Assembly (NCBI GenBank): GCA_022530585.1
Contig: CP092821.1
Location: forward strand, 134,222 to 198,221
Direction: 5' to 3'
Source of the DNA: Candidatus Nealsonbacteria bacterium DGGOD1a
GTDB taxonomy: Bacteria > Patescibacteriota > Minisyncoccia > Minisyncoccales > UBA5738
Length of the DNA stretch: 64,000 bases
The notes under the pieces are model-generated. The model was given only the letters and a program-made list of their open reading frames with translations, was not told where the DNA came from and made no database searches. The position numbers and the translations under genes were made by a program. Below are positions 1,613-61,583 of the stretch, in pieces (the first letter of the stretch is position 1; each line of letters opens with the position of its first letter).

Positions 1613-3394
1613 ATGAAAGTCGAACCACAGCAGCTTAAAGCGTTTATGCTTGACGCCAACTTGGTGACCGTTGAGCAATTTGATGATTGCGCCCAAGAAG
1701 CCGCCGCGAAAAACAAGCGGACGGAGGATGTTTTGATTGAGCGGAATTTGATTGACGCCGAACAGCTTTTGAAGTTGAAGGCCTACATTTTGGGTATTCC
1801 TTATGTCAATTTGGAGAAAGATATTATTCCTTTTGAAGTTTTGACTCTTATTCCGGAACCGATCGCGCGGGCGAACAATGTGGCGGCGTTCCGCAGGACT
1901 GCCGATTCGCTGGAGGTGGCGATGATCGATCCCGAAGATTTGCGGATCATTGAATCGATTAAAAAAACCACCGGACTGACGGTTTTGCCGCGCTTGACCA
2001 ATCTTCAGGGGATGAAGAGCGCGATAATGCAATACCAAAGGACATTGGCGGCCGAAGTGGGCGATTTGGTGGGTGAACCCGGCGAAGTCGGGGGAAACGA
2101 CGAACCCGGCGAGTTTAAAATGATGGATGAAGGGGCCGGCCGCGAGCTTGGCGGCGACGGCAATGAATTGAAGAAAGCCGCTCAAGATTTGCCGGTGATC
2201 AGAATCGTCGATACGCTGGTCAAACACGCGATATTGGAACGGGCTTCGGATATTCATATCGAACCAACGGAGAAAGAAGTAATCGTGCGCTATCGCGTTG
2301 ACGGAATCTTGCGCGACGCGATGACCTTGCCGAAAAATTCGACCGCCGGGATCGTGGCGCGCATTAAAGTCCTGTCCAATTTGAAGCTTGACGAATGCCG
2401 CCTGCCGCAGGATGGCCGTTTCAAAGTGGAAAGCGACCAATGGAAATATTCTTTGCGCGTTTCAACTTTACCGGTTTTTTACGGGGAAAAGATCGTAATG
2501 AGGCTGCTCTCCGAAGGTACCAAGGCGTTTCCGTTGGAGCAACTCGGTTTTCGGGGCCGGGGCTTGGAAAAGATTAAGAATTCGCTTCAGAAAACAATGG
2601 GAATGATTCTGATGACCGGTCCGACCGGATCGGGCAAAACCACGACGCTTTATTCGATGATGGATGTCTTAAACGAGCCGGGAGTGAACATTTCCACCAT
2701 TGAAGACCCGATTGAATATCAAATGCCGCGGGTGAACCAAACGCAAGTGAACGCCAAGATCGGATTGACTTTCGCGTCGGGTTTGCGCACTCTTTTACGC
2801 CAAGACCCGAACATTATTATGGTGGGAGAAATTCGCGACAACGAAACCGCGGCGCTGGCGATTAACGCGGCGTTGACCGGCCATTTGGTGTTGTCCACTT
2901 TGCACACCAATACGGCCGCCGGCGCCATCCCGCGTTTGATCGATATGAAAGCCGAGCCGTTTTTAATTTCGTCCACGATCGATGTGATCATCGCCCAACG
3001 CTTGATACGGTGCTTGGGCGATTCGCGGGAAGAGTATCGCTTGAAAGAAGCCGATGTCGAACATTTGAAACACTACTGCGATATTAGCCGGATTTTGGCG
3101 ATGTTGAAGGACGAAAAAATTGTTCCGGCCAAAGCAACCTGGAAAAACATTCCTTTTTGGCGGCCTAAATCCGTCAAGGATTGCCCCGACGGGTATAAAG
3201 GACGGGTTGGTATCCACGAAGTTTTATCCGTGTCGCCGAAAATCAAGGATTTGATCGTGAAAAATTCAACCGCGGACGCGGTGCAGGCGCAGGCGGTGAA
3301 AGAGGGAATGGTGACGATGTTTGAAGATGGTTTTATCAAAGCCGCGCAAGGCAAAACTTCCATTGAAGAAGTTTTGCGCGTGATTACCGAATAA
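1613..3394 (+). CDS. pilB: Type IV pilus assembly ATPase PilB/GspE family
   Basis: 593 aa; Walker A GPTGSGKTTT, IMVGEIRD (Walker B/Asp box), TGHLVLSTLHTN (His box); starts 9 nt after the receiver gene. Confidence 0.9.
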   Translation: MKVEPQQLKAFMLDANLVTVEQFDDCAQEAAAKNKRTEDVLIERNLIDAEQLLKLKAYILGIPYVNLEKDIIPFEVLTLIPEPIARANNVAAFRRTADSLEVAMIDPEDLRIIESIKKTTGLTVLPRLTNLQGMKSAIMQYQRTLAAEVGDLVGEPGEVGGNDEPGEFKMMDEGAGRELGGDGNELKKAAQDLPVIRIVDTLVKHAILERASDIHIEPTEKEVIVRYRVDGILRDAMTLPKNSTAGIVARIKVLSNLKLDECRLPQDGRFKVESDQWKYSLRVSTLPVFYGEKIVMRLLSEGTKAFPLEQLGFRGRGLEKIKNSLQKTMGMILMTGPTGSGKTTTLYSMMDVLNEPGVNISTIEDPIEYQMPRVNQTQVNAKIGLTFASGLRTLLRQDPNIIMVGEIRDNETAALAINAALTGHLVLSTLHTNTAAGAIPRLIDMKAEPFLISSTIDVIIAQRLIRCLGDSREEYRLKEADVEHLKHYCDISRILAMLKDEKIVPAKATWKNIPFWRPKSVKDCPDGYKGRVGIHEVLSVSPKIKDLIVKNSTADAVQAQAVKEGMVTMFEDGFIKAAQGKTSIEEVLRVITE

Positions 3395-3513: not shown

Positions 3514-3568
3514 ATCCGCTATTTTTAACCTCCCGGCGAGCGGTTACTGGCATTTGATTTGCATATTT

Positions 3569-3596
3569 CTGTTTACCTTTGTTATAATATAAACAG
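3569..3596 (+). promoter_or_regulatory. Candidate promoter of Cys-rich paralog 1: TATAAT (3583-3588) bracketed by inverted repeat CTGTTTA/TAAACAG
   Basis: TGTTATAAT extended -10-like box; same arrangement conserved upstream of paralog 2 (7631-7658). Confidence 0.4.
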
Positions 3597-3686
3597 AGAT
3601 TTGGTTTTTTGAAAGTTGTATTGCGGCGGAGAGCGGGCGATATTGTTTTGGAAATAATTTTACCTTGTTTCCGCCACATTAAAATA

Positions 3687-4439
3687 ATGAAGAAAAATTA
3701 TCGTTTGTCCGCAATTGTTTGCGCGCTGGCGGTGTCTCTGGCGATGTGCTTTGCGGTTGCGGCGTGGAACAGCCCCGATGGCACTCCGCCCGCCGACAAT
3801 GTCGCCGCGCCGATCAACACTTCAAGCGCGGCGCAAACCAAAGCCGGCGATTTAAGTTTGGGCCATAATATTAATGTTACCAGCGACAGCGCGTCCGGCC
3901 GCTTTTGCCTGGCGGGGGAATGTTGCGCCACATGGGAAGAATGTTTTGGCGGAAGCGGCGGTTGCGGTTGCGATTCTTGGATAAATGCGGGTTGCGGCGC
4001 AGGAGGATGCAACGCGGACCGAATGTACCAAACCAGGACATGCAGTCCTTCGGGATGTGATTCCGAAACCCGTTGCGCGACGGACGGGTCTTGCGGGAGC
4101 GCCCCTTGCGCGCCGGATTGCGACGGCAAGGAATGCGGCGACGACGGGTGCGGCGGCGAATGCGGTTCGTGCTCCGGCGGATTGACATGTATTGGTGGTG
4201 ATTGTTTTGATTGCGCACAAGCTTGCGCTAATCAAGAAGCGACTTGCGGCTGGATATCTGCGCCTTTCGGGTGCGGCGATAATTACTGCGGCGATTGCTC
4301 GTCGGGGATATGTCATGTGAATACTTGCTGGCCATATTGCAGCGAGCTTGATTGTTTGGAGATTATTCCGGGCGGAGGGCTGGATCAATGCGTTATTGGG
4401 GAAGGAGGAGGATTTAATGATGTAATTCTCTGCTTTTAA
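3687..4439 (+). CDS. Secreted Cys-rich protein, paralog 1 (conserved leader/stalk + variable head)
   Basis: ATG 3687 preferred over track start 3609 because MKKNYRLS start and its upstream DNA are conserved at 7746. Signal helix AIVCALAVSLAMCFAVAA|W, boxes PPADNVAAPIN..AQTKAGDL and CLAGECCATWEEC, then Cys-rich tail (CGDDGCGGECGSC). Confidence 0.75.
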   Translation: MKKNYRLSAIVCALAVSLAMCFAVAAWNSPDGTPPADNVAAPINTSSAAQTKAGDLSLGHNINVTSDSASGRFCLAGECCATWEECFGGSGGCGCDSWINAGCGAGGCNADRMYQTRTCSPSGCDSETRCATDGSCGSAPCAPDCDGKECGDDGCGGECGSCSGGLTCIGGDCFDCAQACANQEATCGWISAPFGCGDNYCGDCSSGICHVNTCWPYCSELDCLEIIPGGGLDQCVIGEGGGFNDVILCF

Positions 4440-4667
4440 TTAAAGCATTTATAATTCAATTCTGAATTATGAAATGCCAAAAATGAGTGTATAAAGTCCG
4501 GCCTTGTTTTTATATGTGTGGATTACAGCGAGCGCGTTAGCGGCGGTAAATGCATAAACAATGTATGCTTTTCATATTGCGATAGAACTTCCGGCGATAT
4601 TTTCTGTCGATGGGTGGCTGAAGATTGATAAATTGTTTTAGGGACTATTTTTACCAAAGCATTGAGT

Positions 4668-7448
4668 TTATTGCAATATTGCCAGCTGTTTTTGCAATTC
4701 GGCAATCAATTGAATTATCAGTTGAATCAAGAGTTCTCTAATTTGAGCGATCTTTGCCAAAATTTCCTCACGCCCCATTTGCCGGTTTTGCATTTGCATT
4801 TGTTCTTGTCTTTGCAGTTCATAAATATCATCCGTTGGTTTTTCAAATTCGTTACTTTGGTCATTCACCATTTCCCCAAAATTTTTTAATACACATTTAC
4901 CGTTGGAACAAATTTTTTTGGCCGCCGAACAGTCCGTATCGTCAATCCATAAAAAATTGCTGGCACAGGCGCCATTCATGCAGAATCTCTTTATAATTTG
5001 CTTTTGCGTCCATTCATTGCGGCAACGATAATTATCAGTAGTGGTATCAACACCGCAATTTTCCGCCAATTTTTCTTTGACACCGCATGAATTATACCAA
5101 TAAAGATTACCATCTTCGCATTTTTGGTTTGTTTGCGGCGCGCAATTTTCGACGCATTTTCCGTTAGAACATGTTTTTTCGGTTTTACAAACGCCGCAAT
5201 TTATCGTTTTGCCGCAACCATCGCTCCATAATCCGCATTTGTAATTTCCCAAACTCGCGCAAGTTTTGGGAACGCAAACGGTGGAACATTGGTTATTGGA
5301 GCATATCTGTCCGGGCGGACAATCCGCCGGCACCGACCACTCTAGGCAAGAATCCAAATCATAGTTATCGCAAATTTTATACGCGCTTCCGAAACATTGC
5401 ATTGCTCCGAATGCGGAACATTCATTCGCGCAAGCTGCTTCCTTATGGTCAACTCCCCATACTTCAAGTTCGCCAATACTCACAAAATGAGCGCTCCCGC
5501 CCGCATCGCCAACAATACGAATGCCGTTGCCAACGATATTGTTTAAATTAAAAGTATAAGATTCAAAATTCGGTCCAAATAGGTTCTGATTATTCGTGTT
5601 TGGATACGAGGGAAACAGCGTTGCTTGCGCATCAATCCACGCGCCGTTTTGCAACACTTGAACTCGCAAGCTTCCGTTTGCAAACCATCCGCCATCCCAA
5701 AAATGTTTTCCTTCGGTAAAAATAATCTTGGAAAATTTTTTATTTTTGTTAAAAGTATATCCGTAATGCTCTTCATGAATAGCTCCATTACCGACAAAAG
5801 AATCATATTGAAGTTCAATGGCATCCGAAAAGCAATATCCCGGACAATACGAATCATTATAGCAAGCTTGCGACACGGTCGCAGTCAAAGGAGAAGGCTT
5901 AATCCCGTCACGAATGGTTTCAATATTTTTATTGCCTCCGCCCAAGGGACTGAAAACGCTAGCAATAATATTCCCTTGAGAAGCAATATTAACAGGAGTG
6001 CCACCAACGCTAATCGGTATTTTTTCCCATGTCGTATTCCCCTGCATATCGGTCACATAACAAACCGCTTCATAAGCACCGTTTTGAGCATATTGATGAT
6101 TAACATTGGCTCCATTCGCATAAAAGGTATCGCCAAAAAACCATTGATAGCTTTTTATTCCATCGCTGTCGGCGGCTTGCGCATTGAAAGTAAATGTTCT
6201 GTTCCCAAGATCGGTCGCGTTAACGGTCAAACTAGGCTTCGAATTTGTAATTAGAGGCCATTGTTCAAGAATCGGAGGCACGATAACACTTTGATTTGGA
6301 AGATACCAAACACCGCCGCTGATTGTGCCGCCGGTTGTCGCCAAAGATTTGCGTGCAAGCTCCAGATTAACATTAATTGCATCATTGAATGTATAGCTTG
6401 TATTCGCAAACTTATTCCCCATAACATTGAGCGCGGATTTCCATTTATCCGGAATCGCTGAATAGCCCAAAAAATTACCCATTATACTACCGACAGTTGA
6501 CGGATTGCAATCGCTATCTTGTCCGCAACGCATAGAAATACGCATTGACTGCTCAAAATCGCCATCGCCATATAGCAAGCCGATTAAGACATATGCGGCA
6601 TTCAATTTGGCATCAATATTAAACACATTACTGATGCCTTGCGGGCAACGATCGTCTTGTCCCCATTTACTTTCAAGTAATCTCCAATTTTCTTCCCATG
6701 TCTTGCCCGCATTATTCCATGCAATAACATCTTCAATCACCTGCCTAAATTTACTGCCAACCGGCACTGCCTGTCGCCCCGCTTCAATAATCTCATTTAC
6801 ATTATTGGCCGTAAATGCTTTTGCGTGCATCGCGGCAACAAAAACACCTCCATACACGCCGTCTCCATAATTAATCATATGCCCCGCCCTCCAAGCAAGC
6901 TCAATTGCGGAATTAATCTGTCCGGGATTAATCATACCGGCAAAATCCGCTTCAATTTGCCAATCAATATCATCGGAGTGAGGCGTATTGCTATAATGCG
7001 CATTGTCAGGAACAATTATCCCTTTTTGCAAATTGGCGCGTGAAAAATAATTGGCATGGCACAATCCAAATGAAGTATTCAAAAACTCATTCCCAAAATC
7101 GCTCCATGTGGCATTAACGCCATATTTTTTCATCGCCTCCAAAAAGGGGATTTCAACATAAATATCGTCTTGATTGAACCCATTGTTTACCATTTCCGGC
7201 AACCAAGCGGGAATCTCGTATTCCGCCAGCACTCTGCCCTTCCCTTGGAATTCCGTAGGTGCGCCCCATGCCACACCAGCCATTTGCCCAACCCAACCTC
7301 CTTTGACTTTATCAATTATCGCAGATTCACTTAAAAAGACGCTACCGGCGAAACAAACAGAATCATTTTGATTGCCGTAACAGAAAAACAAAAACATCGC
7401 GCTCAATATAGAAAAGGCGAGCGTATAACCGTTGGTTTTTAAAAACAT
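4668..7448 (-). CDS. Secreted multidomain protein: ADP-ribosylglycohydrolase-fold + PKD + beta-sandwich (discoidin/CBM-like) + Cys-rich repeats + C-terminal coiled coil
   Basis: 926 aa; signal peptide; ARH-like N- and C-terminal motifs (GVAWGAPTEF; GQDSDCNPSTVGSIMGNFLG); PKD signature YQWFFGD..NHQY..GAYEAVCYVTD; ...GELEVWG; C-rich tail; ends LIQLIIQLIAELQKQLAILQ. Confidence 0.7.
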   Translation of the reverse strand: MFLKTNGYTLAFSILSAMFLFFCYGNQNDSVCFAGSVFLSESAIIDKVKGGWVGQMAGVAWGAPTEFQGKGRVLAEYEIPAWLPEMVNNGFNQDDIYVEIPFLEAMKKYGVNATWSDFGNEFLNTSFGLCHANYFSRANLQKGIIVPDNAHYSNTPHSDDIDWQIEADFAGMINPGQINSAIELAWRAGHMINYGDGVYGGVFVAAMHAKAFTANNVNEIIEAGRQAVPVGSKFRQVIEDVIAWNNAGKTWEENWRLLESKWGQDDRCPQGISNVFNIDAKLNAAYVLIGLLYGDGDFEQSMRISMRCGQDSDCNPSTVGSIMGNFLGYSAIPDKWKSALNVMGNKFANTSYTFNDAINVNLELARKSLATTGGTISGGVWYLPNQSVIVPPILEQWPLITNSKPSLTVNATDLGNRTFTFNAQAADSDGIKSYQWFFGDTFYANGANVNHQYAQNGAYEAVCYVTDMQGNTTWEKIPISVGGTPVNIASQGNIIASVFSPLGGGNKNIETIRDGIKPSPLTATVSQACYNDSYCPGYCFSDAIELQYDSFVGNGAIHEEHYGYTFNKNKKFSKIIFTEGKHFWDGGWFANGSLRVQVLQNGAWIDAQATLFPSYPNTNNQNLFGPNFESYTFNLNNIVGNGIRIVGDAGGSAHFVSIGELEVWGVDHKEAACANECSAFGAMQCFGSAYKICDNYDLDSCLEWSVPADCPPGQICSNNQCSTVCVPKTCASLGNYKCGLWSDGCGKTINCGVCKTEKTCSNGKCVENCAPQTNQKCEDGNLYWYNSCGVKEKLAENCGVDTTTDNYRCRNEWTQKQIIKRFCMNGACASNFLWIDDTDCSAAKKICSNGKCVLKNFGEMVNDQSNEFEKPTDDIYELQRQEQMQMQNRQMGREEILAKIAQIRELLIQLIIQLIAELQKQLAILQ

Positions 7449-7463
7449 ATTTTAAAAAATTAT

Positions 7464-7596
7464 CTGAATTACGAAATGCCAAAAATGGCGCAAAATGAGT
7501 AATGCTGGCGGCAGTCGGTTGGCCGCTACTAACATACTTTATTTTACATCATTTCCACATTTTTTTCCACATTTTTGGCATTTCGTAATTCAAAGG
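7464..7596. repeat. Palindromic intergenic element, family A variant (same termini, different core)
   Basis: CTGAATTACGAAATGCCAAAAATG ... CATTTTTGGCATTTCGTAATTCAAAGG; half-copy at 4462-4489. Confidence 0.6.
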
Positions 7597-7630
7597 TATG
7601 CACTTTGCGTAGTGTGCGATTTGCGCGTTT

Positions 7631-7658
7631 CTGTTTATTTTTGTTATAATGAAAACAG
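7631..7658 (+). promoter_or_regulatory. Candidate promoter of Cys-rich paralog 2 (TATAAT 7645-7650 inside CTGTTT/AAACAG inverted repeat)
   Basis: Near-identical to 3569-3596. Confidence 0.4.
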
Positions 7659-7745
7659 AGATTTGACTTTCTAAAAGTTGGGTGGCGGAGAGCGGGCGAT
7701 ATTGTTTTGGAAATAATTTTACCTTGTTTCCGCCACATTAAAATA

Positions 7746-8366
7746 ATGAAGAAAAATTATCGTTTGTCCGCAATTGTTTGCGCGCTGGCGGTGTCTCTGG
7801 CGATGTGCTTTGCGGTTGCGGCTTGGAAAAGTCCCGATGGCACTCCGCCCGCCGACAATGTCGCCGCGCCGATCAACACTTCAAGCGCGGCGCAAACCAA
7901 AGCCGGCGATTTAAGTTTGGGCCATAATATTAATGTTGCCAGCGACAGCGCGTCCGGCCGCTTTTGCTTGGCCGGGGAATGTTGCGCCACATGGGAAGAA
8001 TGCGCCACATTCGGTGGTAGTGGCGGTAGTTGCAAACTTGTACCGATAAGCGATGTCTTGGTAGCCGGTTATGATAAATATCGGTGTAAAGATGATTGCA
8101 CATTTTTTTATTGTTCCTATAATTATTATTGGTGTCCGGCGAACAGTTGCGTTATAGGTTTGGGCGGTCTTGAATATTTCTTTTGGAGCAAAGCTTCCAG
8201 AAGATTATGCGCCGGAAACGGTTATGAGGTGTTCATAGAAGATAGCTCTCAATACAATGATACCGATGATTGCAGTCCGGATGGGGGAGCTCCGCTTAGT
8301 AATTTTACCGCGGGATCGGGAATATATGCTTGCGATAACGGGACATGGGTTAAAACCAGCGATTAG
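7746..8366 (+). CDS. Secreted Cys-rich protein, paralog 2
   Basis: First ~85 codons nearly identical in DNA to paralog 1, diverges right after CCATWEEC into an unrelated Cys/aromatic-rich head. Confidence 0.75.
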   Translation: MKKNYRLSAIVCALAVSLAMCFAVAAWKSPDGTPPADNVAAPINTSSAAQTKAGDLSLGHNINVASDSASGRFCLAGECCATWEECATFGGSGGSCKLVPISDVLVAGYDKYRCKDDCTFFYCSYNYYWCPANSCVIGLGGLEYFFWSKASRRLCAGNGYEVFIEDSSQYNDTDDCSPDGGAPLSNFTAGSGIYACDNGTWVKTSD

Positions 8367-8407
8367 AAATGTTGGAGCAAAATACAGTTTCGTAATTTAA
8401 GATAATT

Positions 8408-9052
8408 ATGAATCATCATTTAAAATTTTATGCGGTGGCGGTGTGCGCGCTAATTGCCGTTTTGGCATTGTGTTTTGTAGCCATGGCATGGAACAATCCC
8501 GGCGGCCCTTCGCCCACCGAAAATGCTGACGCGCCGATCAATGAGGGGGCGACCGCGCAAACGAAAGCCGGCGATTTAAATCTGGGCGGCAAACTGAATG
8601 TTGCCGAAGACAGCGCGTCCGGCCGCTTTTGTTTGGCCGGGGAATGTTGCGCCACATGGGAAGAATGTTTTGGCGTACCGACGCCTTCGACTTGTTCCTG
8701 TGGTAGTTGGGCGTTTGTCGGTCCCGTTTCCAATTGCGGCGTTGAGGATGTGAGTGTTAGCAGGCAAAGCCGGGACTGCTATCCCGATGGTTGCGATTTT
8801 GAAACGAGATGCGTGAGGACAAAATATGATCCGAGCCCGGCACCGGGAATTAGTTGCAGCGCGGATAACGAGTGCGGATTCGGAAGCGCGTACGGATATT
8901 GTTGCGATTCTCATGACGGCTGGTGCGTTCTTCGGGATCAGGAAACGATGAGCGATGCTGAATGGTGCGCTTATAGCGGCCGGGAGTGCGGGACATGGAT
9001 TGCCGCTTGCGGCAGAAGCGTATACTGCGGAATCTGCAGTGAGGGAGAGTGA
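8408..9052 (+). CDS. Secreted Cys-rich protein, paralog 3 (as bounded by in-frame TGA)
   Basis: Signal helix AVAVCALIAVLALCFVAMA|W, APIN..AQTKAGDL, CLAGECCATWEEC boxes; preceded by GTTTCGTAATTTAAG box 7 nt from ATG. Confidence 0.7.
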   Translation: MNHHLKFYAVAVCALIAVLALCFVAMAWNNPGGPSPTENADAPINEGATAQTKAGDLNLGGKLNVAEDSASGRFCLAGECCATWEECFGVPTPSTCSCGSWAFVGPVSNCGVEDVSVSRQSRDCYPDGCDFETRCVRTKYDPSPAPGISCSADNECGFGSAYGYCCDSHDGWCVLRDQETMSDAEWCAYSGRECGTWIAACGRSVYCGICSEGE

Positions 9053-9229
9053 TACTTTTACGGGGAATATTGCGCCAACTGTGGCGCGGAAGGGTACGAA
9101 TGTGGCGAGTTTTGGGATCCGTACGAAGGTATAACGCGGGATTGCGGCGATTGTTCTTCCGGTTGCACGGGAATGCCATGGTCATGCAAATGCACCGGGC
9201 ATGATTGTTCCGGTCCGGGATACAATTAA
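9053..9229 (+). other. In-frame Cys-rich continuation of paralog 3 beyond TGA 9050-9052 (truncated tail or read-through extension)
   Basis: Same frame translates YFYGEYCANCGAEGYECGEFWDPYEGITRDCGDCSSGCTGMPWSCKCTGHDCSGPGYN*; CGDCSSG also occurs in paralog 1. Confidence 0.5.
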
Positions 9230-9337
9230 TTGAAGAATAAACATTGTTATTATTTTAAAAGTCGCGCGGCAGTGCCATGGTGTTAGCCATTTTGAAAAAA
9301 TGGTTCGCTCATGGCGGTGGTCGGGCGGTTGGCGATA

Positions 9338-10087
9338 ATGGATCAAAAAAGGTATTTGTTGGCGGCGATTTGCGCGCTGGCGGTTTGCTTGGCGCTGTGT
9401 TTTGGTATTATGGCGTGGGATTCTCCCGGAGAAAATCCGCCGGACGGCAATGTTGCCGCGCCGATTAATTCCGGCGGCGACGCGCAATATAAAACCGGCG
9501 GTTTGGGCGTGAAGATCGGCGGCGCGATTACCTATTGGATTTCCCAGGCTGGCAATAATCTGGTGTTTAAGACCGGCAATGACTTTGCCACGGCCACCGA
9601 AACGGTGAACATCAATGCTGATGGCCGGATTGGTAATGTTTCTCCCGCAATTGACGATAACGATGTGGTCATCAAGGCTCAACTGGATGCTGCTGGCGGC
9701 GGCGGATCGGGCTATGGCACTTGCGACGGCGATCAGTTGTTCGTCAAATTCACCGCGGCAACATATACGGGAGATTTGGACGGCGTTGGCGGCGCGAATG
9801 CCAAATGCGCGGCGGAATACCCGGGTTACCATTTTTGCCAGAGCGACGAATGGAATGTTGCCGGACGCGCAGGATGTCTGCCGTTGGTTGGACAGTATGG
9901 CGCAATAAGAGGTTGGTGGAATGGTAATGTATCTTACCCGCCCAACGCTGATTGTGATGATTGGACCGATTCAACGATCACGAAACACTTATATGGGACT
10001 TATCTGAGTAGTTTAGAGGAGACTGGCAGTTGGGGAGCAAGCGTAACATTTTGTTCAGACCCATATTCTCTTGCATGTTGCAAATAG
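9338..10087 (+). CDS. Secreted protein, paralog 4 (same leader/APIN module, fibre-like spacer, different Cys-containing C-terminal domain)
   Basis: MDQKRYLLAAICALAVCLALCFGIMA|WDSPGENPPDGNVAAPIN..AQYKTGGL; DDNDVVIKAQLDAA; C-terminal TYTGDLDGVGGANAKC motif (DUF1554-like from memory, low confidence). Confidence 0.7.
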   Translation: MDQKRYLLAAICALAVCLALCFGIMAWDSPGENPPDGNVAAPINSGGDAQYKTGGLGVKIGGAITYWISQAGNNLVFKTGNDFATATETVNINADGRIGNVSPAIDDNDVVIKAQLDAAGGGGSGYGTCDGDQLFVKFTAATYTGDLDGVGGANAKCAAEYPGYHFCQSDEWNVAGRAGCLPLVGQYGAIRGWWNGNVSYPPNADCDDWTDSTITKHLYGTYLSSLEETGSWGASVTFCSDPYSLACCK

Positions 10088-10119
10088 TTTTGGCGGCAGT
10101 TGAATTGTTTGCAAAATTC

Positions 10120-10689
10120 ATGAAAAAAGTTTTAAAAATCGCGATTTTGATTTTGGTGTCGGCACTGGCGATAATCGCAACAATTGCTTTTTGGCCGCGC
10201 CGCGCCGCCAATCCCGAGTCGTTCGCGCCGCCTTGCGAAACCGAGCATGAGGTTTTTGTGATCCGCGGCGATTCGCTGGCGCCGGAATTCGCCGATGGCC
10301 AAGAGGTGAAGTTGTTGCCCCGGTATTATGATTGCCATTCGTTGTCGGCGGGCGACGCGGTGGCCTATCGCTGGGCGGGAAACAAAGACGCGCCGCTGGC
10401 CAAGATCGTGAAAGCCGTTGCCGGCGACCGCTGGCGAATGGAATTGATGCCGGAGCAAAATACCTACCAAATTGAGGTTAATGATCAATGGTTGAAAAAT
10501 TCCGAAGGCGCGCCTTACCAAATTCCCGGGAAAAAGGCAAAAATGCTCTTGCTCTATGCCAATTCCTATCCGCGAATTCCCGAAGGCGCTTGCCTGATCT
10601 TGGGCAATGTTTTGGAGGGCTCCGACGATTCGGTGAAATTCGGCCTGGCGGCGCAAGAAAACATTGTCGGGAAAATCAAGCCGTTCTAA
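10120..10689 (+). CDS. Signal peptidase I-like (S26/S24 fold) membrane protein
   Basis: N-terminal TM; Ser box VIRGDSLAPEF and Lys box AKIVKAVAGDRW match SPase I GDSMxP / KRVxGxPGD pattern. Confidence 0.6.
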   Translation: MKKVLKIAILILVSALAIIATIAFWPRRAANPESFAPPCETEHEVFVIRGDSLAPEFADGQEVKLLPRYYDCHSLSAGDAVAYRWAGNKDAPLAKIVKAVAGDRWRMELMPEQNTYQIEVNDQWLKNSEGAPYQIPGKKAKMLLLYANSYPRIPEGACLILGNVLEGSDDSVKFGLAAQENIVGKIKPF

Positions 10690-10808: not shown

Positions 10809-11654
10809 ATGGAGGAAAATAAAAAACAAAATTATATTTCTTTGGCCGGCGCGGCGAAATTATGTTCATATTCGGAACCCTATTTGCGGTTGCGCGCGCG
10901 GCAGGGAAAATTAAAATCCATCAAACTGGGCAAAAAATGGATGACCACGGCCGCGTGGCTTGATGATTATCAGGCGCGCGCGCAGGAATGGCGCGAAGCG
11001 GCGGAAGCCAAAAGGGCGAACGCGCCGGCCGCGGTTTTCGTGGCCGCGCCTTCGGAGCTGTCGGCGAATGTTGATTGCTCCGTTGCCGGCTTATCCGCCG
11101 AAGCATTGGCGAATGAGGAAATCGAACCTGTTTCTTCCGGGCGATTTCTTGAAGACGCAAAATCTTTGGAGCATATTTCCGACGGGGGGCAATTTTTGCC
11201 TTCGCGGAATTTTGTCGATACAAGCCGTGATCAAGCCGGCAAACCGGCCGCGGTTTTTTGCGCGGATGCCGGATCGCTTTTGCCGCCGCCGATTCCCAAA
11301 AGGCTCCGGGCAATACCGACATCGGGCCAAATTTATCCGCTTCCAAAACCCGAGCAAACGCGAATTGCCGAAATTTCGGATTATGGCTGGTTGGGAGCGT
11401 TGATTTCCGGCGCGGCCAGCGCGTTGTTGCTTTTTGCGCTTTTGAGCCAGTCCGGCGTTCCGAATATTATAAATTCCAATTTTGAAGCGGGCCAAGCCAG
11501 CGTTAGCCGATCGGTTTTCCCGGATTTCGGACAGAATGCCCCGCCGCCAAAAAATTTTGAGAATGTTTTTCCCGCCGCGCCGGAAAACTTTTCCGCGGGC
11601 GATCCGCTTGACGAATTGGTGGAGGCTATCGTGCGTTTTTTCTCCGGTTTTTAA
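10809..11654 (+). CDS. HTH (excisionase/MerR-like) domain protein with C-terminal TM segment
   Basis: N-terminus YISLAGAAKLCSYSEPYLRLRARQGKLKSIKLGKKWMTTAAWLDDY; later hydrophobic GWLGALISGAASALLLFALL. Confidence 0.55.
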   Translation: MEENKKQNYISLAGAAKLCSYSEPYLRLRARQGKLKSIKLGKKWMTTAAWLDDYQARAQEWREAAEAKRANAPAAVFVAAPSELSANVDCSVAGLSAEALANEEIEPVSSGRFLEDAKSLEHISDGGQFLPSRNFVDTSRDQAGKPAAVFCADAGSLLPPPIPKRLRAIPTSGQIYPLPKPEQTRIAEISDYGWLGALISGAASALLLFALLSQSGVPNIINSNFEAGQASVSRSVFPDFGQNAPPPKNFENVFPAAPENFSAGDPLDELVEAIVRFFSGF

Positions 11655-11696
11655 TTTTTTTATACCCCGTCAGCTTGCCGCGGAGTTAATACTCCG

Positions 11697-12923
11697 ATGC
11701 AAGCCAGCAACCAAATGGCGCAATTTTCTTTTCAATCAAAATCAATCGACGGCAAAGAACAGAAAGGGGTTCGCGAGGCGGAAAGCGAAATTGAACTGGC
11801 GCACAGCCTCCGGCGGGAGGGTTTTATTTTAATCCGCGCGACGCCGGCGTCCGCCGCCCGCAAATTTCGCATCCCGACGCTTTCCTTTGGGGTAAGCCTC
11901 AAGGATAAAATGTTTTTTTGCAAAAATTTGCAAGTGATGGCTTCCGCCGGGCTTTCTTTGCCGCGCGCGGTTGGAATTTTGGCCGACCAGAGCGGCAATT
12001 CCGTTTTTCGCCGGACGCTTAATTCGGTCAAAGACGATATGATCCGCGGCGAAGCGTTTTCCGCGGCGATGGAAAAACATCCGAATGTTTTTTCGGATTT
12101 TTTGCGCAGTATGGTTAAAGTGGGCGAAGAGACCGGAACGCTGGAAAATGTTTTGGGAATCGCGGTTAACCAGATGGAAAAAGAATATTCGTTAAAATCA
12201 AAAGTAAAAGGCGCTTTGGTTTATCCAACTGTCATTCTGACCGCGATGGTTGGTATTGGTATGCTGATGCTGGCCACGGTCGTGCCCCAACTGGCGGCGA
12301 CTTTCGCGGAGTTGAAAACCGAGCTTCCCATAACGACCAAGTTCGTGATTGCCGCGGGAATGTTCATGGAAAAATACTGGTGGATCGTGGCGGCCGTTTT
12401 CGCGGCGCTGGTCGCGGTTGCCGCGCGGCTGATAAAAACAAAACCGGGCAAGAAATTGTATGACGGCGTCGCGCTAAAATTTCCGGCGATAAATGTTATC
12501 GTGCGCAATGTCAATTCGGCGTATACTTTGCGCAATTTGAGCGCGCTGATCGGCGCGGGGGTTTCTTTGCCGCGCGCTTTGGAAATCACTTCGGGCACGG
12601 TGGGCAATGTCAATTACCAAAACGCGCTTTTGGGCATTGAAGAACGAGTCAAAAAGGGCGAAAAATTTTCCGCGGCCATCAAAATGTTTGACAATCTTTA
12701 TCCGGCGACCGCGATCCAAATGATCGCCGTGGGCGAGGAGACCGGCGAAACCAGCAACATTTTGTTGAAGTTGGCGGAATTTTACGAAAATGAAGTTGAC
12801 GAAGAAACAAAAAATTTCGCTTCGATCATCGAACCGATGCTGATGATCGTGATCGGCGCGGTGGTGGGATTTTTCGCGATATCAATGGTCCAACCGATGT
12901 ACTCGATGATGGACTCGGTTTAA
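11697..12923 (+). CDS. pilC: Type IV pilus/T2SS platform protein PilC/GspF
   Basis: 408 aa; two GspF repeats, three TM regions; typical C-terminal EPMLMIVIGAVVG..MVQPMYSMM. Confidence 0.85.
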   Translation: MQASNQMAQFSFQSKSIDGKEQKGVREAESEIELAHSLRREGFILIRATPASAARKFRIPTLSFGVSLKDKMFFCKNLQVMASAGLSLPRAVGILADQSGNSVFRRTLNSVKDDMIRGEAFSAAMEKHPNVFSDFLRSMVKVGEETGTLENVLGIAVNQMEKEYSLKSKVKGALVYPTVILTAMVGIGMLMLATVVPQLAATFAELKTELPITTKFVIAAGMFMEKYWWIVAAVFAALVAVAARLIKTKPGKKLYDGVALKFPAINVIVRNVNSAYTLRNLSALIGAGVSLPRALEITSGTVGNVNYQNALLGIEERVKKGEKFSAAIKMFDNLYPATAIQMIAVGEETGETSNILLKLAEFYENEVDEETKNFASIIEPMLMIVIGAVVGFFAISMVQPMYSMMDSV

Positions 12924-12941
12924 ATAGATTTAAATTAACAA

Positions 12942-14738
12942 ATGATTGGCCGAAATTCATTATTATTGGATAAAGCAAAACATTTAAGAGCAGGCAAGAA
13001 TGGCTTTACTTTGATTGAGGCTCTGGTGGGAGTCGCGCTTTTGGGAATTGTTTTTTCCGGGATTTTCGCGTCTTACCGTTTGGGGATGAAGGTGGTTGGG
13101 TTGAGCAAAAATCGGATTGCCGCAACTTCGATCGCTAATGCCCGGATCGAAATGATCCGCAATCTTAATTATGGTTCCGTGGGCGTAGAAAACGCGGAAT
13201 TGCCGTTTGCGGCGGGAATATTGCAACAAGCTTATTCGCAGACAATCGACAATGTCGAATTTATGATTTCAACGCAAGTGCGTTTTATATCTGACGCCGC
13301 CGACGGAACGGGCGTTTCCGATCCATGCAACCTTGATTTTAAAAAAGCCGATGTAACGGTTTCGTGGCAAGGCGTTTATCCGGGCAGCGTTAATTTATCG
13401 ACCAATCTCTCTCCGAAAAACAAGGCGCAGGAAGCGCAATCGTGCCTTGATCAGCCCGGCGGCGTTCTGACGGTAACGGTTTTTGACGAGGGCGGAATTT
13501 TGGTGCCGTCGCCCAACATCTCGGTTTACAATCCGGTAACCAATAATTTGGTTGCCATCGCGGCGCCGGCTTCCGGGGAATATTCTTTTCCTTTGGCGAT
13601 AGGCAATTACCGGGTGGAAACTTCAAAGACCGCTTACAGCGCCGCCCGGACATACAGCGCCGGCGGCGATGACGGAGTCGCGGTTCCCGACAGTCCCAAT
13701 CCGACGGTTTTGGAAGGCGGTGAAGTGCCGTTGAGCCTTTCGATTGACCAAGTCGCGGCGATCTCTGTTGACGGCATTGCTCCCGACGGTCAAGATAATT
13801 TCGCGGACAGTTTTGACGATGCGGCATTAATATCGGCGTCGGATAACATCCAATTTTTGTCCGGAGATATTTTGTTTTCCGGCCCGCCATATTCGGCGAA
13901 CGGATACGCGATTTCCAACGCGATCAATCCGGTCGATTTAACGGTTTGGGATGAATTAAGGTTTGACGATGATCGTCCGGCCGGGACAGGAATTCTCTAT
14001 CAAGTTTTACATTACGACGGTTCCGATTGGGTTTTGGTTCCCGATTCGGATTTGAGCGGAAACAGCGCCGGGTTCGGCAATTCTCCGGTAAATCTGGCAG
14101 GGTTGGATAAGGGTAATTATCCGCAAATTAAAATTAAAAGCAATCTAACGAGCGGCGATCCTGACTTCACTCCGCGGATGCATAATTGGCAGGTTGTTTG
14201 GACGACGGCATCCGGCCCGGCGGTTCCGGGCGCGTTATTCCATATGAGAGGGGCAAAAACTATTGGAGAAGACGCCTTGGGGCAAAAGATTTACAAGTAT
14301 TCGCAGGATCATGTTCTGGATGCCGCCGGCCATTTGGACATCTTTGGTATTGACGCCGATGATTATACTTTTTCGGTTGACCCGGTATCCGGGTTGAGTT
14401 TGATCGCGACCGATCCGGCGGTATTGCCGATTGGCGCTCCGGCCGGCGGCGCGGTTGCGGTGAAATTATTTTTGCGGCCGCAAAACGCGCTTTTGGCAAC
14501 GGTTCAGAACAGCGCGACTCTCGATCCGATATTTTCCGCGGAAGTAAGGTTGTCGAATTCCGGAATCGGATACGATAAAATCCAATATACCGATCAAAAC
14601 GGCCAAACATATTTCGCTCCGCTGGCCAATGGAGTTTATAATATTTCCGTTGGCGCGGCCGGTTACGCCGGAGCTTCAAGCACGGTTTCGGTGGCGGGGC
14701 TAAGCGATTTAACGGTTGATGTCAATCAGAATGAATAA
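12942..14738 (+). CDS. Large prepilin-type N-terminal domain protein (minor pilin/pseudopilin with CarboxypepD_reg-like beta-sandwiches)
   Basis: Class III signal KNG|FTLIEALVGVALLGIVF after 21-aa leader; two ...GNYRV/GVYNISV beta-sandwich modules. Confidence 0.75.
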   Translation: MIGRNSLLLDKAKHLRAGKNGFTLIEALVGVALLGIVFSGIFASYRLGMKVVGLSKNRIAATSIANARIEMIRNLNYGSVGVENAELPFAAGILQQAYSQTIDNVEFMISTQVRFISDAADGTGVSDPCNLDFKKADVTVSWQGVYPGSVNLSTNLSPKNKAQEAQSCLDQPGGVLTVTVFDEGGILVPSPNISVYNPVTNNLVAIAAPASGEYSFPLAIGNYRVETSKTAYSAARTYSAGGDDGVAVPDSPNPTVLEGGEVPLSLSIDQVAAISVDGIAPDGQDNFADSFDDAALISASDNIQFLSGDILFSGPPYSANGYAISNAINPVDLTVWDELRFDDDRPAGTGILYQVLHYDGSDWVLVPDSDLSGNSAGFGNSPVNLAGLDKGNYPQIKIKSNLTSGDPDFTPRMHNWQVVWTTASGPAVPGALFHMRGAKTIGEDALGQKIYKYSQDHVLDAAGHLDIFGIDADDYTFSVDPVSGLSLIATDPAVLPIGAPAGGAVAVKLFLRPQNALLATVQNSATLDPIFSAEVRLSNSGIGYDKIQYTDQNGQTYFAPLANGVYNISVGAAGYAGASSTVSVAGLSDLTVDVNQNE

Positions 14739-15846
14739 CACAAAAACGAGCGGCATAATTTCCAATTTCTTTCGCCGGGCGAGATCCTGCGCCGCGGGAC
14801 GATTTTTGCGCCAAAGGCGCATCCGTTTCCGGCGGGCAATTTCCAACGGAAGAGGCGGTTTCACGATTATTGAAATGCTCGCGGCAATCGCGGTTTTCGG
14901 GTTGCTGATGGCCGCGATCGGGACGGCGATTATAATGATTTACCGAACGCAGGGATATGCCATGGAACAATCAATGGCAATCAGCGAAGCCCGCCGCGGC
15001 GTGGACATAATGGCCAAAGAAGTGAGGCAGGCTCGTTACGGAGAAAACGGCGCTTATCCGATTGAAAAAGGCGCGGGCAAGGAATTCATTTTTTACAGCG
15101 ATGTTGACAATGACGGTCAAACCGAGCGAGTGCGCTATTATTTGGCGACCGTGAATTCCGGTTCTCAAACCAAAGAATGCCATTCTCATTCGCAATCCGG
15201 TTGGCCTTATTGGCAGTCCCCTGCGTGCAGTGTTGATTTCAGCGGTTTTCTGGCCGGGACTTTGAAATCGGCGCAAGTGAGAGTGTCCACCGAGGGATAT
15301 TATGGTACGCCGAGCCGTTATGCCGCGCTTCGCGCCGATGGCGTGGAATTGATGAACAATATGTGCCAGAGCGGTTGTTCCGAATGCATCGAGGCTTGGC
15401 AGGGAACGCAGACTTTTGATGTGACCGCGGCGGCCGCGGATAATTCAATTCAATTCAATATAACCGGCAACGATAAATTGAAAGCGGTTTGCGATTGGAT
15501 CGATCCCGATCACTCAATCAAGGCGAAATTCGAATTTTTCTTCACCGAAGAAATTCCGAGCGTCGGCAATGAATTGCGCCGGGGAGTAATCGAGCCTTCG
15601 GGCAGTCCGTCATCGTATCCGGCCAATCAAGAGCAATCAACCATTATAACTTCGTATGTTCGCAATACGCCGCCGATATTCACTTATTACGATAAAAACG
15701 GCGCGCAGATTATCGACGATCCGTCGATCCTTCATGACACCAAAATGGTGCGGCTTCATATGGTGGTTAACATCAATCCCAATCGCGCGCCGGATGACTA
15801 CGAATTGGAGCAATATGTGCAAATAAGAAACCTTAAAGAAGAATGA
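14731..15846 (+). CDS. Prepilin-type N-terminal domain protein (pseudopilin) with long Arg-rich leader
   Basis: GRGG|FTIIEMLAAIAVFGLLMAAIG; ATG 14731 overlaps upstream stop; alternative starts 14716/14719. Confidence 0.7.
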   Translation: MNNTKTSGIISNFFRRARSCAAGRFLRQRRIRFRRAISNGRGGFTIIEMLAAIAVFGLLMAAIGTAIIMIYRTQGYAMEQSMAISEARRGVDIMAKEVRQARYGENGAYPIEKGAGKEFIFYSDVDNDGQTERVRYYLATVNSGSQTKECHSHSQSGWPYWQSPACSVDFSGFLAGTLKSAQVRVSTEGYYGTPSRYAALRADGVELMNNMCQSGCSECIEAWQGTQTFDVTAAAADNSIQFNITGNDKLKAVCDWIDPDHSIKAKFEFFFTEEIPSVGNELRRGVIEPSGSPSSYPANQEQSTIITSYVRNTPPIFTYYDKNGAQIIDDPSILHDTKMVRLHMVVNINPNRAPDDYELEQYVQIRNLKEE

Positions 15847-42472: not shown

Positions 42473-42491
42473 ATGTTTGAGATTCGCGATA

Positions 42492-42525
42492 AGGCCGGCC
42501 CCGGCGTATTTAACGGGGCCGGCCT
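42492..42525 (+). terminator. GC-rich hairpin between giant genes 1 and 2
   Basis: AGGCCGGCCCCG-GCGTATTTAA-CGGGGCCGGCCT; TATAAT at 42533-42538 just downstream; no T-run. Confidence 0.5.
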
Positions 42526-42560
42526 CCGAGTCGTATAATTTGAATTCATTAACAAAAATT

Positions 42561-45581: not shown

Positions 45582-45637
45582 CTGATTCGTGTTTCGTTCG
45601 CGATCCGGCCAACCCGCGTTCGCGCGTTTCAACCGAA

Positions 45638-50637: not shown

Positions 50638-50655
50638 TCATAAATAACCAAAATT

Positions 50656-61426: not shown

Positions 61427-61583
61427 TTGGTTGTATGATATAATTATAATATGTAATTCAAAATGGAAAATCAAAATGCGCATCGCATTTTAAGATATAA
61501 AATTTTTTAATCTGATTTTTCATTTTTCCCGCCATTGCGGGATGCGCGCGGGGCGCAGATATTTAATTTTTAAATTTTTTCCC

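What the first reader, a model, noticed from the sequence alone, without database searches (positions are those of the whole stretch)
3568..8675. Promoter-to-junction conversion tract between paralogs 1 and 2, and a ~65-nt identity box at the module boundary shared with paralog 3
Seen: 3568-3943 and 7629-8002 are near-identical, with only a handful of mismatches by eye. The tract covers the TATAAT promoter with its flanking inverted repeat, the 5' UTR and about 85 codons. Identity stops abruptly within the codon after ..CCATWEE(C).

Paralog 3 is clearly diverged at the DNA level through its leader. It then becomes almost identical to paralogs 1 and 2 for ~65 nt (8609-8675, GACAGCGCGTCCGGCCGCTTTTG.TTGGCCGGGGAATGTTGCGCCACATGGGAAGAATG) immediately before its own unique head.

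Inference: an island of nucleotide identity placed exactly at the conserved/variable junction is what recombination or gene conversion would produce if it swaps heads onto a common expression and export module.
Basis: seen in the sequence. Interest (0 to 1): 0.65.

Follow-up and report, generated by a model that had tools for sequence, protein, structure and literature searches.

The report
Recombining modular surface-protein genes, CPR epibiont
Four neighbouring genes in the pilus locus of a tiny bacterium that lives attached to methane-producing archaea encode surface proteins with a shared front end and different cysteine-rich tips, and sequence comparisons indicate that the front ends are copied between genes up to a conserved 20-residue cysteine motif, a known way of diversifying attachment proteins seen here in an undescribed family.

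Summary
P1 (3687-4439) and P2 (7746-8366) are 313/319 identical over 3625-3943 vs 7684-8002. The promoter part is only about 80% identical (57/71). Identity ends at 3943|3944. P3 (8408-9052) is about 65% identical to P1/P2 in its leader but 57-58/60 identical in the 20-codon box DSASGRFCLAGECCATWEEC (8609-8668).

The box is first a protein motif (C-x4-5-CC-x2-W-x2-C), invariant in 15 diverse members of a large unannotated Patescibacteria family. Within this genome alone its nucleotide identity is not significant. Comparison with orthologues is:
- Leaders group by orthology and boxes by genome (Fisher p=0.006; max-chi2 p=0.0008-0.01, breakpoint at the box start).
- P1 is a chimera of a P2-type front and a P3-type head.
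- Two same-species contigs differ from the window only at three P1/P2-diagnostic sites in P2.
- Relatives carry the same promoter, 5'UTR and leader on three head classes.
- One relative has a 358-nt perfect tract between two adjacent paralogues.

The organism is Ca. Nealsonbacteria DGGOD1a, a Methanothrix epibiont. The most likely mechanism is ordinary homologous recombination or gene conversion between modular fibre/adhesin-like genes. No recombinase or reverse transcriptase was found among the 44 window ORFs scanned. The closest analogues are Bdellovibrio MAT fibres and phage tail fibres.

The parts
3556..3624 (+). P1 promoter copy. Extended -10 TGTTATAAT at 3580-3588, bracketed by the palindrome TCTGTTTA (3568-3575) / TAAACAGA (3590-3597). 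About 80% identical to the P2 copy.
   Evidence: conserved in L002, L003, L004, L008 and L011. Promoter function is inferred from the consensus only.
3625..3943 (+). High-identity tract, copy 1: 5'UTR with a conserved hairpin (3620-3679), the start codon at 3687, the leader and the box. 313/319 identical to 7684-8002.
3687..4439 (+). P1 coding sequence (250 aa): TM helix, leader, box (3885-3944), then a Cys-rich head of the P3 type. It is a chimera.
4668..7448 (-). 926-aa secreted ADP-ribosylglycohydrolase + PKD + Cys-rich protein gene lying between the two repeat copies. It has lower GC and is absent from this locus in relatives.
4461..4485 (+). Left 25-nt direct repeat bracketing the ARH gene (TCTGAATTATGAAATGCCAAAAATG).
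7463..7592 (.). Right direct repeat (7463-7487) plus an inverted copy (7570-7592). Together they form a 128-nt palindrome (7465-7592).
   Evidence: z=-5.2
7618..7683 (+). P2 promoter copy (TGTTATAAT at 7642-7650). It is closer than the P1 copy to the promoter of related genomes.
7684..8002 (+). High-identity tract, copy 2. It contains the strain-variable patch 7823-7832.
7746..8366 (+). P2 coding sequence (206 aa). Box at 7944-8003. The type-2 head has orthologues in L002, L004, L008, L019 and L022.
8408..9052 (+). P3 coding sequence (214 aa) up to an in-frame TGA. The frame then continues for 59 Cys-rich codons to 9230.
8609..8668 (+). The box in P3 (DSASGRFCLAGECCATWEEC). 58/60 identical to P2, and P1/P2-like rather than like the P3 orthologues.
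9338..10087 (+). P4 coding sequence (249 aa). It shares the leader (about 56% aa identity) but has a stalk-type sequence in place of the box and a different head.
10030..10689 (+). S26-family signal-peptidase gene. It follows the P4-type gene in every related locus that has one.

Best explanation
The region holds four tandem paralogues (P1-P4) of a large, unannotated Patescibacteria family of modular exported proteins. They are inserted between pilB and pilC of the type IV pilus locus of Candidatus Nealsonbacteria DGGOD1a, an epibiont of Methanothrix.

Each protein has three parts:
- An N-terminal membrane helix.
- A conserved leader (AW-x-x-P...PP-x-x-N...AP-I-N...Q-x-K-x-G-x-L).
- In P1-P3, a 20-residue four-cysteine box (C-x4-5-CC-x2-W-x2-C), followed by a variable Cys-rich head.

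The front ends are homologous and directly repeated, whereas the heads are not. General homologous recombination and gene conversion can therefore copy sequence between paralogues, and tracts must end where homology ends, at the box. This keeps the P1 and P2 front ends at 98% identity. It has overwritten the box of P3 with the P1/P2 version. It produced P1 as a P2-front / P3-type-head chimera. Through crossovers between leaders it also adds or deletes whole genes, so the pilB-proximal promoter drives different heads in different relatives.

What is shown: the tracts, their breakpoints, the phylogenetic incongruence, the chimeric gene and the variable locus content.

What is inferred: the RecA-type mechanism, export, and a role of the heads as host-binding tips of short surface fibres.
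For: Tract and breakpoints. Heterogeneity along the repeat (80% vs 98%, p=2e-7).

Box groups by genome, leader by orthology: box: W_P3-W_P2 97% vs W_P3-L008_P3 82%; the 150 nt before the box: 68% vs 81%; max-chi2 16.4, p=0.0008; breakpoint at 8608|8609 against the closest orthologue, p=0.007-0.01; quartet test, p=0.0055.

Chimeric P1.

Strain-level patch 7823-7832, on an otherwise identical 14-19 kb. A more distant strain, L014 (99.6% identical), keeps the window state.

Relatives:
- L002/L008: pilB, P2', P3', X, pilC.
- L003: pilB, two P4-type genes, S26; the two genes share 358 nt at 100% identity with unrelated flanks.
- L011 and L005: P4-type gene then S26.
- Common promoter and 5'UTR on head types 1, 2 and 4.
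- Mosaic L022.

Family: 4323 clusters at E<=1e-3. The four Cys and the Trp of the box are invariant in 15 diverse members. Some members end directly after the box. No Pfam or NCBIfam model matches. Long members hit phage tail-fibre PHROGs, and the family profile (A5) hits the solved Bdellovibrio MAT fibres (8OND, E=7.8e-7).

AlphaFold2 model of P2: helix at residues 5-26, and a beta-hairpin plus short helix at the box.

Organism: (NCBI name on P3); supplement of PMC13101534; bioRxiv 10.1101/2022.04.20.488981.

No integrase, recombinase or reverse transcriptase among the scanned window ORFs.
Against: - Within this genome alone, the excess of identical codons in the box is not significant (17/19 vs 21/31, p=0.10). 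Strong purifying selection on 20 invariant residues explains most of the island.
- The box is short. The cross-genome signal rests on about 4 synonymous sites plus the DS/DF difference.
- The L012/L013 patch lies inside a 319-nt repeat in assemblies of mixed short and long reads. Read mis-mapping during polishing could mimic conversion.
- L004 and L022 are short contigs (L004 assembled at 1.3x coverage) and could be assembly chimeras.
- The direction and age of the P1 chimera cannot be fixed, because no orthologue of the P1 head was found.
- Function is untested. The AlphaFold2 head model has low confidence (mean pLDDT 64).
- P1-P3 lack the fibre stalk repeats of the longer family members.
Confidence: 0.72

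Rival explanations
1. There is no recombination at the P3 box. The 60-nt island is simply a fully conserved protein motif, plus shared codon preferences, in paralogues whose synonymous sites are not saturated.
For: 20/20 residues are identical. The four Cys and the Trp are invariant across the family. The codon-identity excess within the genome is not significant (p=0.10). Even in the leader, 68% of conserved residues use the same codon.
Against: In the box the window paralogues are closer to each other (95-97%) than to their orthologues (73-90%), while the preceding 150-168 nt show the reverse. Four synonymous sites (GGG/GGA, TGT/TGC, GCC/GCG, GAA/GAG) and the DS/DF codons sort by genome. The breakpoint tests give p=0.0008-0.01.
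Confidence: 0.15
2. The P1/P2 identity reflects one recent segmental duplication or insertion, with no later conversion. That event would have brought in the P1 head and the ADP-ribosylglycohydrolase gene and copied the promoter and leader.
For: The repeats are direct and bracket a 4.06-kb segment. That segment is missing from the homologous locus of relatives. It has lower GC and its own 25-nt flanking repeats.
Against: Divergence along the repeat is strongly uneven (20% in the promoter vs 2% in the 5'UTR and coding sequence, p=2e-7). About 5 synonymous differences occur in 86 codons. Same-species contigs differ by a clustered 3-site patch that switches P2 to the P1 state. The P1 head is only about 39% identical to its nearest relatives, so it is old.
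Confidence: 0.15
3. This is programmed head switching by a dedicated mechanism, such as a shufflon-like site-specific recombinase acting at the box, pilE/pilS-type cassette conversion, or a diversity-generating retroelement.
For: The box sits exactly at the conserved/variable junction. The locus lies inside a type IV pilus cluster, where such systems are known in other bacteria (my own knowledge, not tested here).
Against: All boxes are in direct orientation. Every copy is a complete gene with its own start codon. No silent cassette, recombinase, integrase or reverse transcriptase was found among the 44 window ORFs scanned with Pfam. Tract ends differ between genomes: L003 ends at DDND, not at a box.
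Confidence: 0.05
4. The near-identity is an assembly artefact, produced by collapsed or cross-polished repeats.
For: Three short-read contigs of the same species start inside the P2 copy of the repeat (L015 at 7682, L016 at 7848, L017 at 7851), so assemblers do struggle with it. The genome was closed by hybrid assembly (supplement of PMC13101534).
Against: The same two-copy structure, with the same six diagnostic differences, appears in the window, in L014 (a strain 99.6% identical) and in L015. L012 and L013 differ only at one patch. Analogous tracts occur in unrelated assemblies of relatives (L003).
Confidence: 0.03

Closest known systems
Bdellovibrio bacteriovorus MAT (mosaic adhesive trimer) fibre proteins: Bd2133, Bd1334, Bd2439 and others (PDB 8OND, 8OML, 8OJN; PMC10769870)
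   Same: Many paralogues per genome. An invariant N-terminal end retains the protein on the cell, and the C-terminal tips are variable and swappable. The bacterium must recognise another cell. The CPR family profile matches the MAT stalk repeat GNVGIGTxxPxxKLxV (E=7.8e-7).
   Different: P1-P3 are only 206-250 aa and lack stalk repeats. Their N-terminal module is unrelated to the MAT N-terminal domain: the profile match covers only stalk-repeat positions. The junction is a four-Cys box not described for MAT. Trimer formation is untested. The host here is an archaeon, and the genes sit in a pilus locus.
Phage tail fibres and receptor-binding proteins with a conserved N-terminal anchor and exchanged C-terminal domains
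   Same: Modular exchange occurs by homologous recombination at conserved junction sequences. Long family members hit tail-fibre PHROGs (1.7e-22) and Pfam Gp34_trimer.
   Different: These are chromosomal cellular genes with a membrane helix. There is no phage context, and P1-P4 themselves give no PHROG hit.
Polymorphic toxin loci (CdiA-CT, Rhs) with a demarcation motif (VENN, PxxxxDPxGL) and displaced C-terminal modules
   Same: A conserved N-terminal part is followed by a short invariant motif and then a variable C-terminus. Recombination at the motif replaces tips. One family member carries PT-HINT.
   Different: There are no immunity genes and no toxin domains in P1-P4. All copies are full-length with their own starts, rather than orphan fragments.
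Concerted evolution of surface-protein paralogues by gene conversion, for example Neisseria opa and pilE/pilS or Mycoplasma variable lipoproteins (my own knowledge)
   Same: The 5' expression and export regions are homogenised, the 3' regions are variable, and strains differ by patchy tracts.
   Different: No silent cassette store and no phase-variable repeats were found. The evidence is for evolutionary, not programmed, exchange.

Membership tests
Gene conversion / concerted evolution between paralogues | A tract of much higher identity than the flanking homologous sequence, with sharp ends | tested here: met
   98.1% over 3625-3943, against 80% in the adjoining promoter homology and an unrelated head. 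L003 has 358 nt at 100% identity.
Gene conversion / concerted evolution between paralogues | Phylogenetic incongruence: the tract groups by genome, the flank by orthology | tested here: met
   Quartet test, 17:4 vs 0:4, p=0.0055. Max-chi2 p=0.0008-0.01.
Gene conversion / concerted evolution between paralogues | Patchwise transfer of paralogue-specific variants between otherwise identical strains | tested here: inconclusive
   7823, 7829 and 7832 are the only differences in 14-19 kb, and they match the P1 state. A polishing artefact inside a repeat cannot be excluded.
MAT / tail-fibre-like trimeric fibres | Stalk built from beta-helix/prism repeats (GNVGIGT..P..KL.V) | tested here: not met
   The repeats are absent from P1-P3. 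P1-P4 give no Pfam or PHROG hit. Longer members of the same leader family do have them.
MAT / tail-fibre-like trimeric fibres | Conserved N-terminal retention module with diversified C-terminal tips in many paralogues | tested here: met
MAT / tail-fibre-like trimeric fibres | Homotrimer displayed on the cell surface | not testable with these tools
   Only a monomer AlphaFold2 model was made (pLDDT 64). It shows a TM helix at residues 5-26.
Type IV pilins | Class III signal peptide / N-methylation motif (G|FTLIE) | tested here: not met
   P1-P4 give no N_methyl hit, whereas the neighbouring genes at 12942 and 14716 have it.
Shufflon / invertible cassette systems | Inverted recombination sites and a tyrosine recombinase | tested here: not met
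   All three boxes are direct repeats. No recombinase in the scanned ORFs.
Diversity-generating retroelement target | Reverse transcriptase plus a template/variable repeat pair with adenine-specific differences | tested here: not met
   No RT was found. The P1/P2 differences are not A-specific.
Polymorphic toxins with C-terminal displacement | Toxin domain with a cognate immunity gene downstream, and orphan CT fragments | tested here: not met
   P1-P4 have no toxin or immunity domains. All copies are complete genes.

The most novel reading that the evidence does not exclude
The four-cysteine box would be a family-wide recombination joint. It would let Patescibacteria epibionts shuffle host-binding heads onto a common promoter, 5'UTR hairpin and export leader. 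The P1-P4 set in the pilus locus of Ca. Nealsonbacteria would then be the proteins that recognise the Methanothrix surface, so host range would evolve by head exchange, and possibly vary within a culture.
Probability: 0.25. Interest if true: 0.75.

Novelty: new variant of a known kind. Interest (0 to 1): 0.5.

Why it matters
How ultrasmall Patescibacteria recognise and attach to their hosts is largely unknown. For archaeal hosts such as Methanothrix no attachment protein has been identified. This locus offers named candidates: P1-P4, next to pilB/pilC, in an organism kept in a stable enrichment culture.

It also defines an N-terminal export module and a Cys-box junction motif shared by thousands of unannotated proteins. 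And it shows that the family diversifies in the way phage tail fibres and Bdellovibrio MAT fibres do.

If the heads do bind the host, head exchange at the box would be a simple genetic route to changes in host range. The conserved 5'UTR hairpin and the palindromic promoter would be handles for studying their regulation.

Tried and rejected
- The word-indexed protein search with the P1 leader alone found nothing. The exhaustive HMM search was needed.
- The degenerate box pattern found no match in GTDB representative genomes and only two metagenome loci.
- A search for orthologues of the P1 head, to see which leader they carry, returned only generic Cys-repeat proteins. The origin of the P1 head remains open.
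- Pfam, NCBIfam and PHROGs gave no hit for P1-P4.
- Rfam gave nothing relevant for the 5'UTR or the palindrome.
- AlphaFold2 of P2 gave a low-confidence head, so no fold search was run.
- The apparent similarity of L008_P2 to L008_P3 in mid-leader was rejected as evidence of conversion. Window P1/P2 are derived there (SLGHNINV), whereas L004_P2 keeps the ancestral NLGGKLNV.
- Tandem arrays were looked for around two distant family members and not found. The pilus-locus context is specific to this lineage.
- The supplement of PMC13101534 held no locus-tag-level expression data for these genes.
Full report
**What is in the sequence**

The region holds four paralogous genes on the + strand:
- P1: 3687-4439, 250 aa.
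- P2: 7746-8366, 206 aa.
- P3: 8408-9052, 214 aa, ending at an in-frame TGA.
- P4: 9338-10087, 249 aa.

A convergent 926-aa gene (4668-7448, minus strand) lies between P1 and P2. It encodes an ADP-ribosylglycohydrolase with PKD and Cys-rich domains. Upstream are a histidine kinase, a receiver-domain protein and PilB (1613-3394). Downstream are an S26 signal peptidase (10030-10689), an unknown 281-aa gene, PilC, two N-methyl pilin-like genes and PilM/PilN. The paralogues are therefore embedded in a type IV pilus cluster.

**Checking the observation**

The P1/P2 repeat has two parts. 3625-3943 vs 7684-8002 is 313/319 identical. 3556-3626 vs 7618-7688 is 57/71 identical with a 3-nt indel. Further upstream the sequences are unrelated. 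Identity stops between 3943 and 3944.

The difference in divergence between the promoter part and the rest is highly significant (p=2e-7). This fits an older duplication whose 5'UTR and coding part were homogenised later. The 5'UTR is also strongly conserved between species, so selection contributes there.

P3 is 65% identical to P2 at the nucleotide level before the box and 58/60 identical within the box, 8609-8668. The ECCATWEEC pattern occurs three times against 0 expected.

**What the box is**

An exhaustive profile search with the four leaders found 4323 protein clusters at E<=1e-3. Where a source gives an organism name, it is Patescibacteria or Nealsonbacteria.

The members share this layout:
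- A membrane helix.
- AW-(T/S/N)-E-P...PP-x-G-N-V-x-A-P-I-N...Q-x-K-x-G-x-L.
- An optional run of stalk repeats (G-N-V-G-I-G-T..P..K-L-D-V).
- In many members, a motif phi-C-(L/I)-x4-5-C-C-x-x-W-x-x-C, followed by very different, often Cys-rich, C-terminal parts.

In an alignment of 15 diverse members, the four Cys and the Trp of the box are invariant. Four members end immediately after the box, so the box closes the conserved module and heads are add-ons. The AlphaFold2 model of P2 places a helix at residues 5-26 and a beta-hairpin plus short helix at the box. The head is of low confidence.

The island in P3 is therefore first of all a conserved protein motif. Using this genome alone, the excess of identical codons in the box (17/19) over the leader (21/31) is not significant (p=0.10).

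**Evidence that recombination nevertheless acts there**

Related loci were recovered from metagenomes and genomes.

In the 150-168 nt before the box, sequences group by orthology:
- W_P3 vs L008_P3: 81%.
- W_P3 vs W_P2: 67-68%.
- W_P2 vs L008_P2: 78-79%.

In the box they group by genome:
- W_P3 vs W_P2: 97%.
- W_P3 vs L008_P3: 82%.
- W_P3 vs L018_P3: 77%.
- W_P2 vs L008_P2: 87%.

The quartet count is 17 orthology sites against 4 genome sites before the box, and 0 against 4 inside it (p=0.0055). Max-chi-square on triplets places the switch at window 8596-8609, with p=0.0008 (L008_P3 as reference) and p=0.007-0.01 (closest orthologue, L018_P3). All three P3 orthologues read D-F-A-S-G-R-F, whereas window P3 reads D-S-A-S-G-R-F like P1 and P2. 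The simplest reading is that the P3 box was overwritten from P1 or P2.

**P1 is a chimera**

Its promoter, 5'UTR and leader are of the P2 type: 78-82% identical to P2 orthologues and 67-68% to P3-type leaders.

Its head is homologous along its length to P3-type heads (BLASTP E=3e-30 to L001, 3e-29 to P0004, 4e-16 to window P3) and shows no significant similarity to the P2 head. The four other P3-type heads found all carry P3-type leaders. At least one exchange has therefore joined a P2-type front to a P3-type head, exactly at the end of the box.

**Population and comparative evidence**

Contigs of the same species:
- L012 and L013 are identical to the window over 14-19 kb except at 7823, 7829 and 7832. 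These are three of the six P1/P2 diagnostic sites, and there P2 carries the P1 state.
- A more divergent strain, L014 (99.6% identical), and L015 keep the window state. The L012/L013 state is therefore derived.
- This is what a short conversion patch looks like. It lies inside a repeat in hybrid or short-read assemblies, however, so a polishing artefact cannot be excluded.

Relatives:
- L002/L007/L008/L010: pilB, P2', P3', X, pilC.
- L003: pilB, two P4-type genes, S26.
- L011 and L005: one P4-type gene, then S26.

The same TG-n-TATAAT promoter and ~95-nt 5'UTR precede head type 1 in the window, type 2 in L002/L004/L008, and type 4 in L003/L005/L006/L011. Crossovers between directly repeated leaders would produce exactly such gains and losses.

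In L003 the two adjacent paralogues share 358 nt at 100% identity, with unrelated sequence upstream and rapid decay after the stalk/head junction.

L022 matches L004 at 45 of 46 informative leader sites. It then matches L019 at 10 of 10 sites from the middle of the box onward and carries the L019 head. The caveat is that these are short metagenome contigs (L004 assembled at 1.3x coverage).

**Mechanism**

No integrase, recombinase or reverse transcriptase was found among 44 window ORFs scanned with Pfam. All boxes are direct repeats and all copies are complete genes. Tract ends differ between genomes. The evidence therefore points to ordinary homologous recombination and gene conversion, limited by the extent of homology, and not to a programmed switch.

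Export is inferred from the N-terminal helix and from a conserved small-x-small|W site before the leader motif. A dedicated role for the adjacent S26 peptidase is suggested only by its strict pairing with P4-type genes.

**Comparison with known systems**

The family profile matches the stalk repeats of the solved Bdellovibrio MAT fibres (8OND, E=7.8e-7; 8OML). Long members hit tail-fibre PHROGs and Gp34_trimer. MAT proteins are described as mosaic, with an invariant N-terminal end and swappable tips used to recognise prey (PMC10769870).

P1-P4 work like a miniature version of this. They cannot be filed as MAT or tail-fibre members, because they lack the stalk repeats and give no hits themselves.

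The organism is Ca. Nealsonbacteria DGGOD1a (GTDB UBA5738), shown by microscopy to sit on Methanothrix. Its genome paper mentions the pilus genes but not these genes.

**Verdict**

The added points are these:
- The box is a family-wide structural motif.
- The recombination signal only becomes significant when orthologues are compared.
- The principle is well known from other surface-protein and tail-fibre systems.

What is new is the family, its junction motif, and its setting in an archaeal epibiont.

Noticed in passing
window 9050-9230: P3 ends at an in-frame TGA (9050-9052) that aligns with a Cys column of homologous heads. The next 59 in-frame codons, up to TAA at 9228-9230, are orthologous to the true C-terminus of P0164. 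The TGA is present in all 7 contigs carrying this protein. TGA is a normal stop in this genome (5 of 38 genes). It could be a recent truncation, read-through, or (less likely) selenocysteine.
   Followed up: partly
window 4461-4485, 7463-7487, 7570-7592 (and gene 4668-7448, minus strand): The ADP-ribosylglycohydrolase/PKD gene is bracketed by 25-nt direct repeats. A third, inverted copy forms a 128-nt palindrome (fold z=-5.2). These are the only three copies in the 64 kb. The gene has lower GC (about 0.42 vs about 0.53) and is absent from the homologous locus in relatives, so it looks like an inserted cassette of unknown mechanism.
   Followed up: partly
window 3620-3679 and 7679-7738: A conserved ~60-nt hairpin lies in the 5'UTR of the promoter-bearing paralogues. 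It is present in every related genome regardless of head type. Four pairs show compensatory changes, the fold z-score is -3.2, and there is no Rfam match. It may be a regulatory leader RNA.
   Followed up: partly
window 3568-3597 and 7630-7659: The palindrome TCTGTTTA / TAAACAGA brackets the extended -10. Its arms change together in L002/L008 (TGTCCA / TAGACA), suggesting an operator for a dimeric regulator. A histidine kinase and a receiver-only protein lie just upstream.
   Followed up: partly
window 9338-10689; L003 9688-11112; L005 90-1520; L011 6034-7382: A P4-type paralogue is always immediately followed by an S26 signal-peptidase gene, often overlapping it. Loci with only P2/P3-type genes lack this peptidase.
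   Followed up: partly
window 11143-15600 vs L014: Between the window and strain L014 (99.6% identical), SNPs concentrate in the pilC and pilin genes, and only two fall in 3556-10200.
   Followed up: no
protein P0105 (family member, not in the window): A 1499-aa protein with the same N-terminal leader carries a PT-HINT domain, so the leader is also used on polymorphic-toxin-like proteins.
   Followed up: no
window 37529-52302: A run of very large secreted proteins (1647, 1034, 1420 and 548 aa) with Y_Y_Y, Big_13 and Peptidase_M64 domains lies further downstream. A second PilM gene is at 61542-62681.
   Followed up: no
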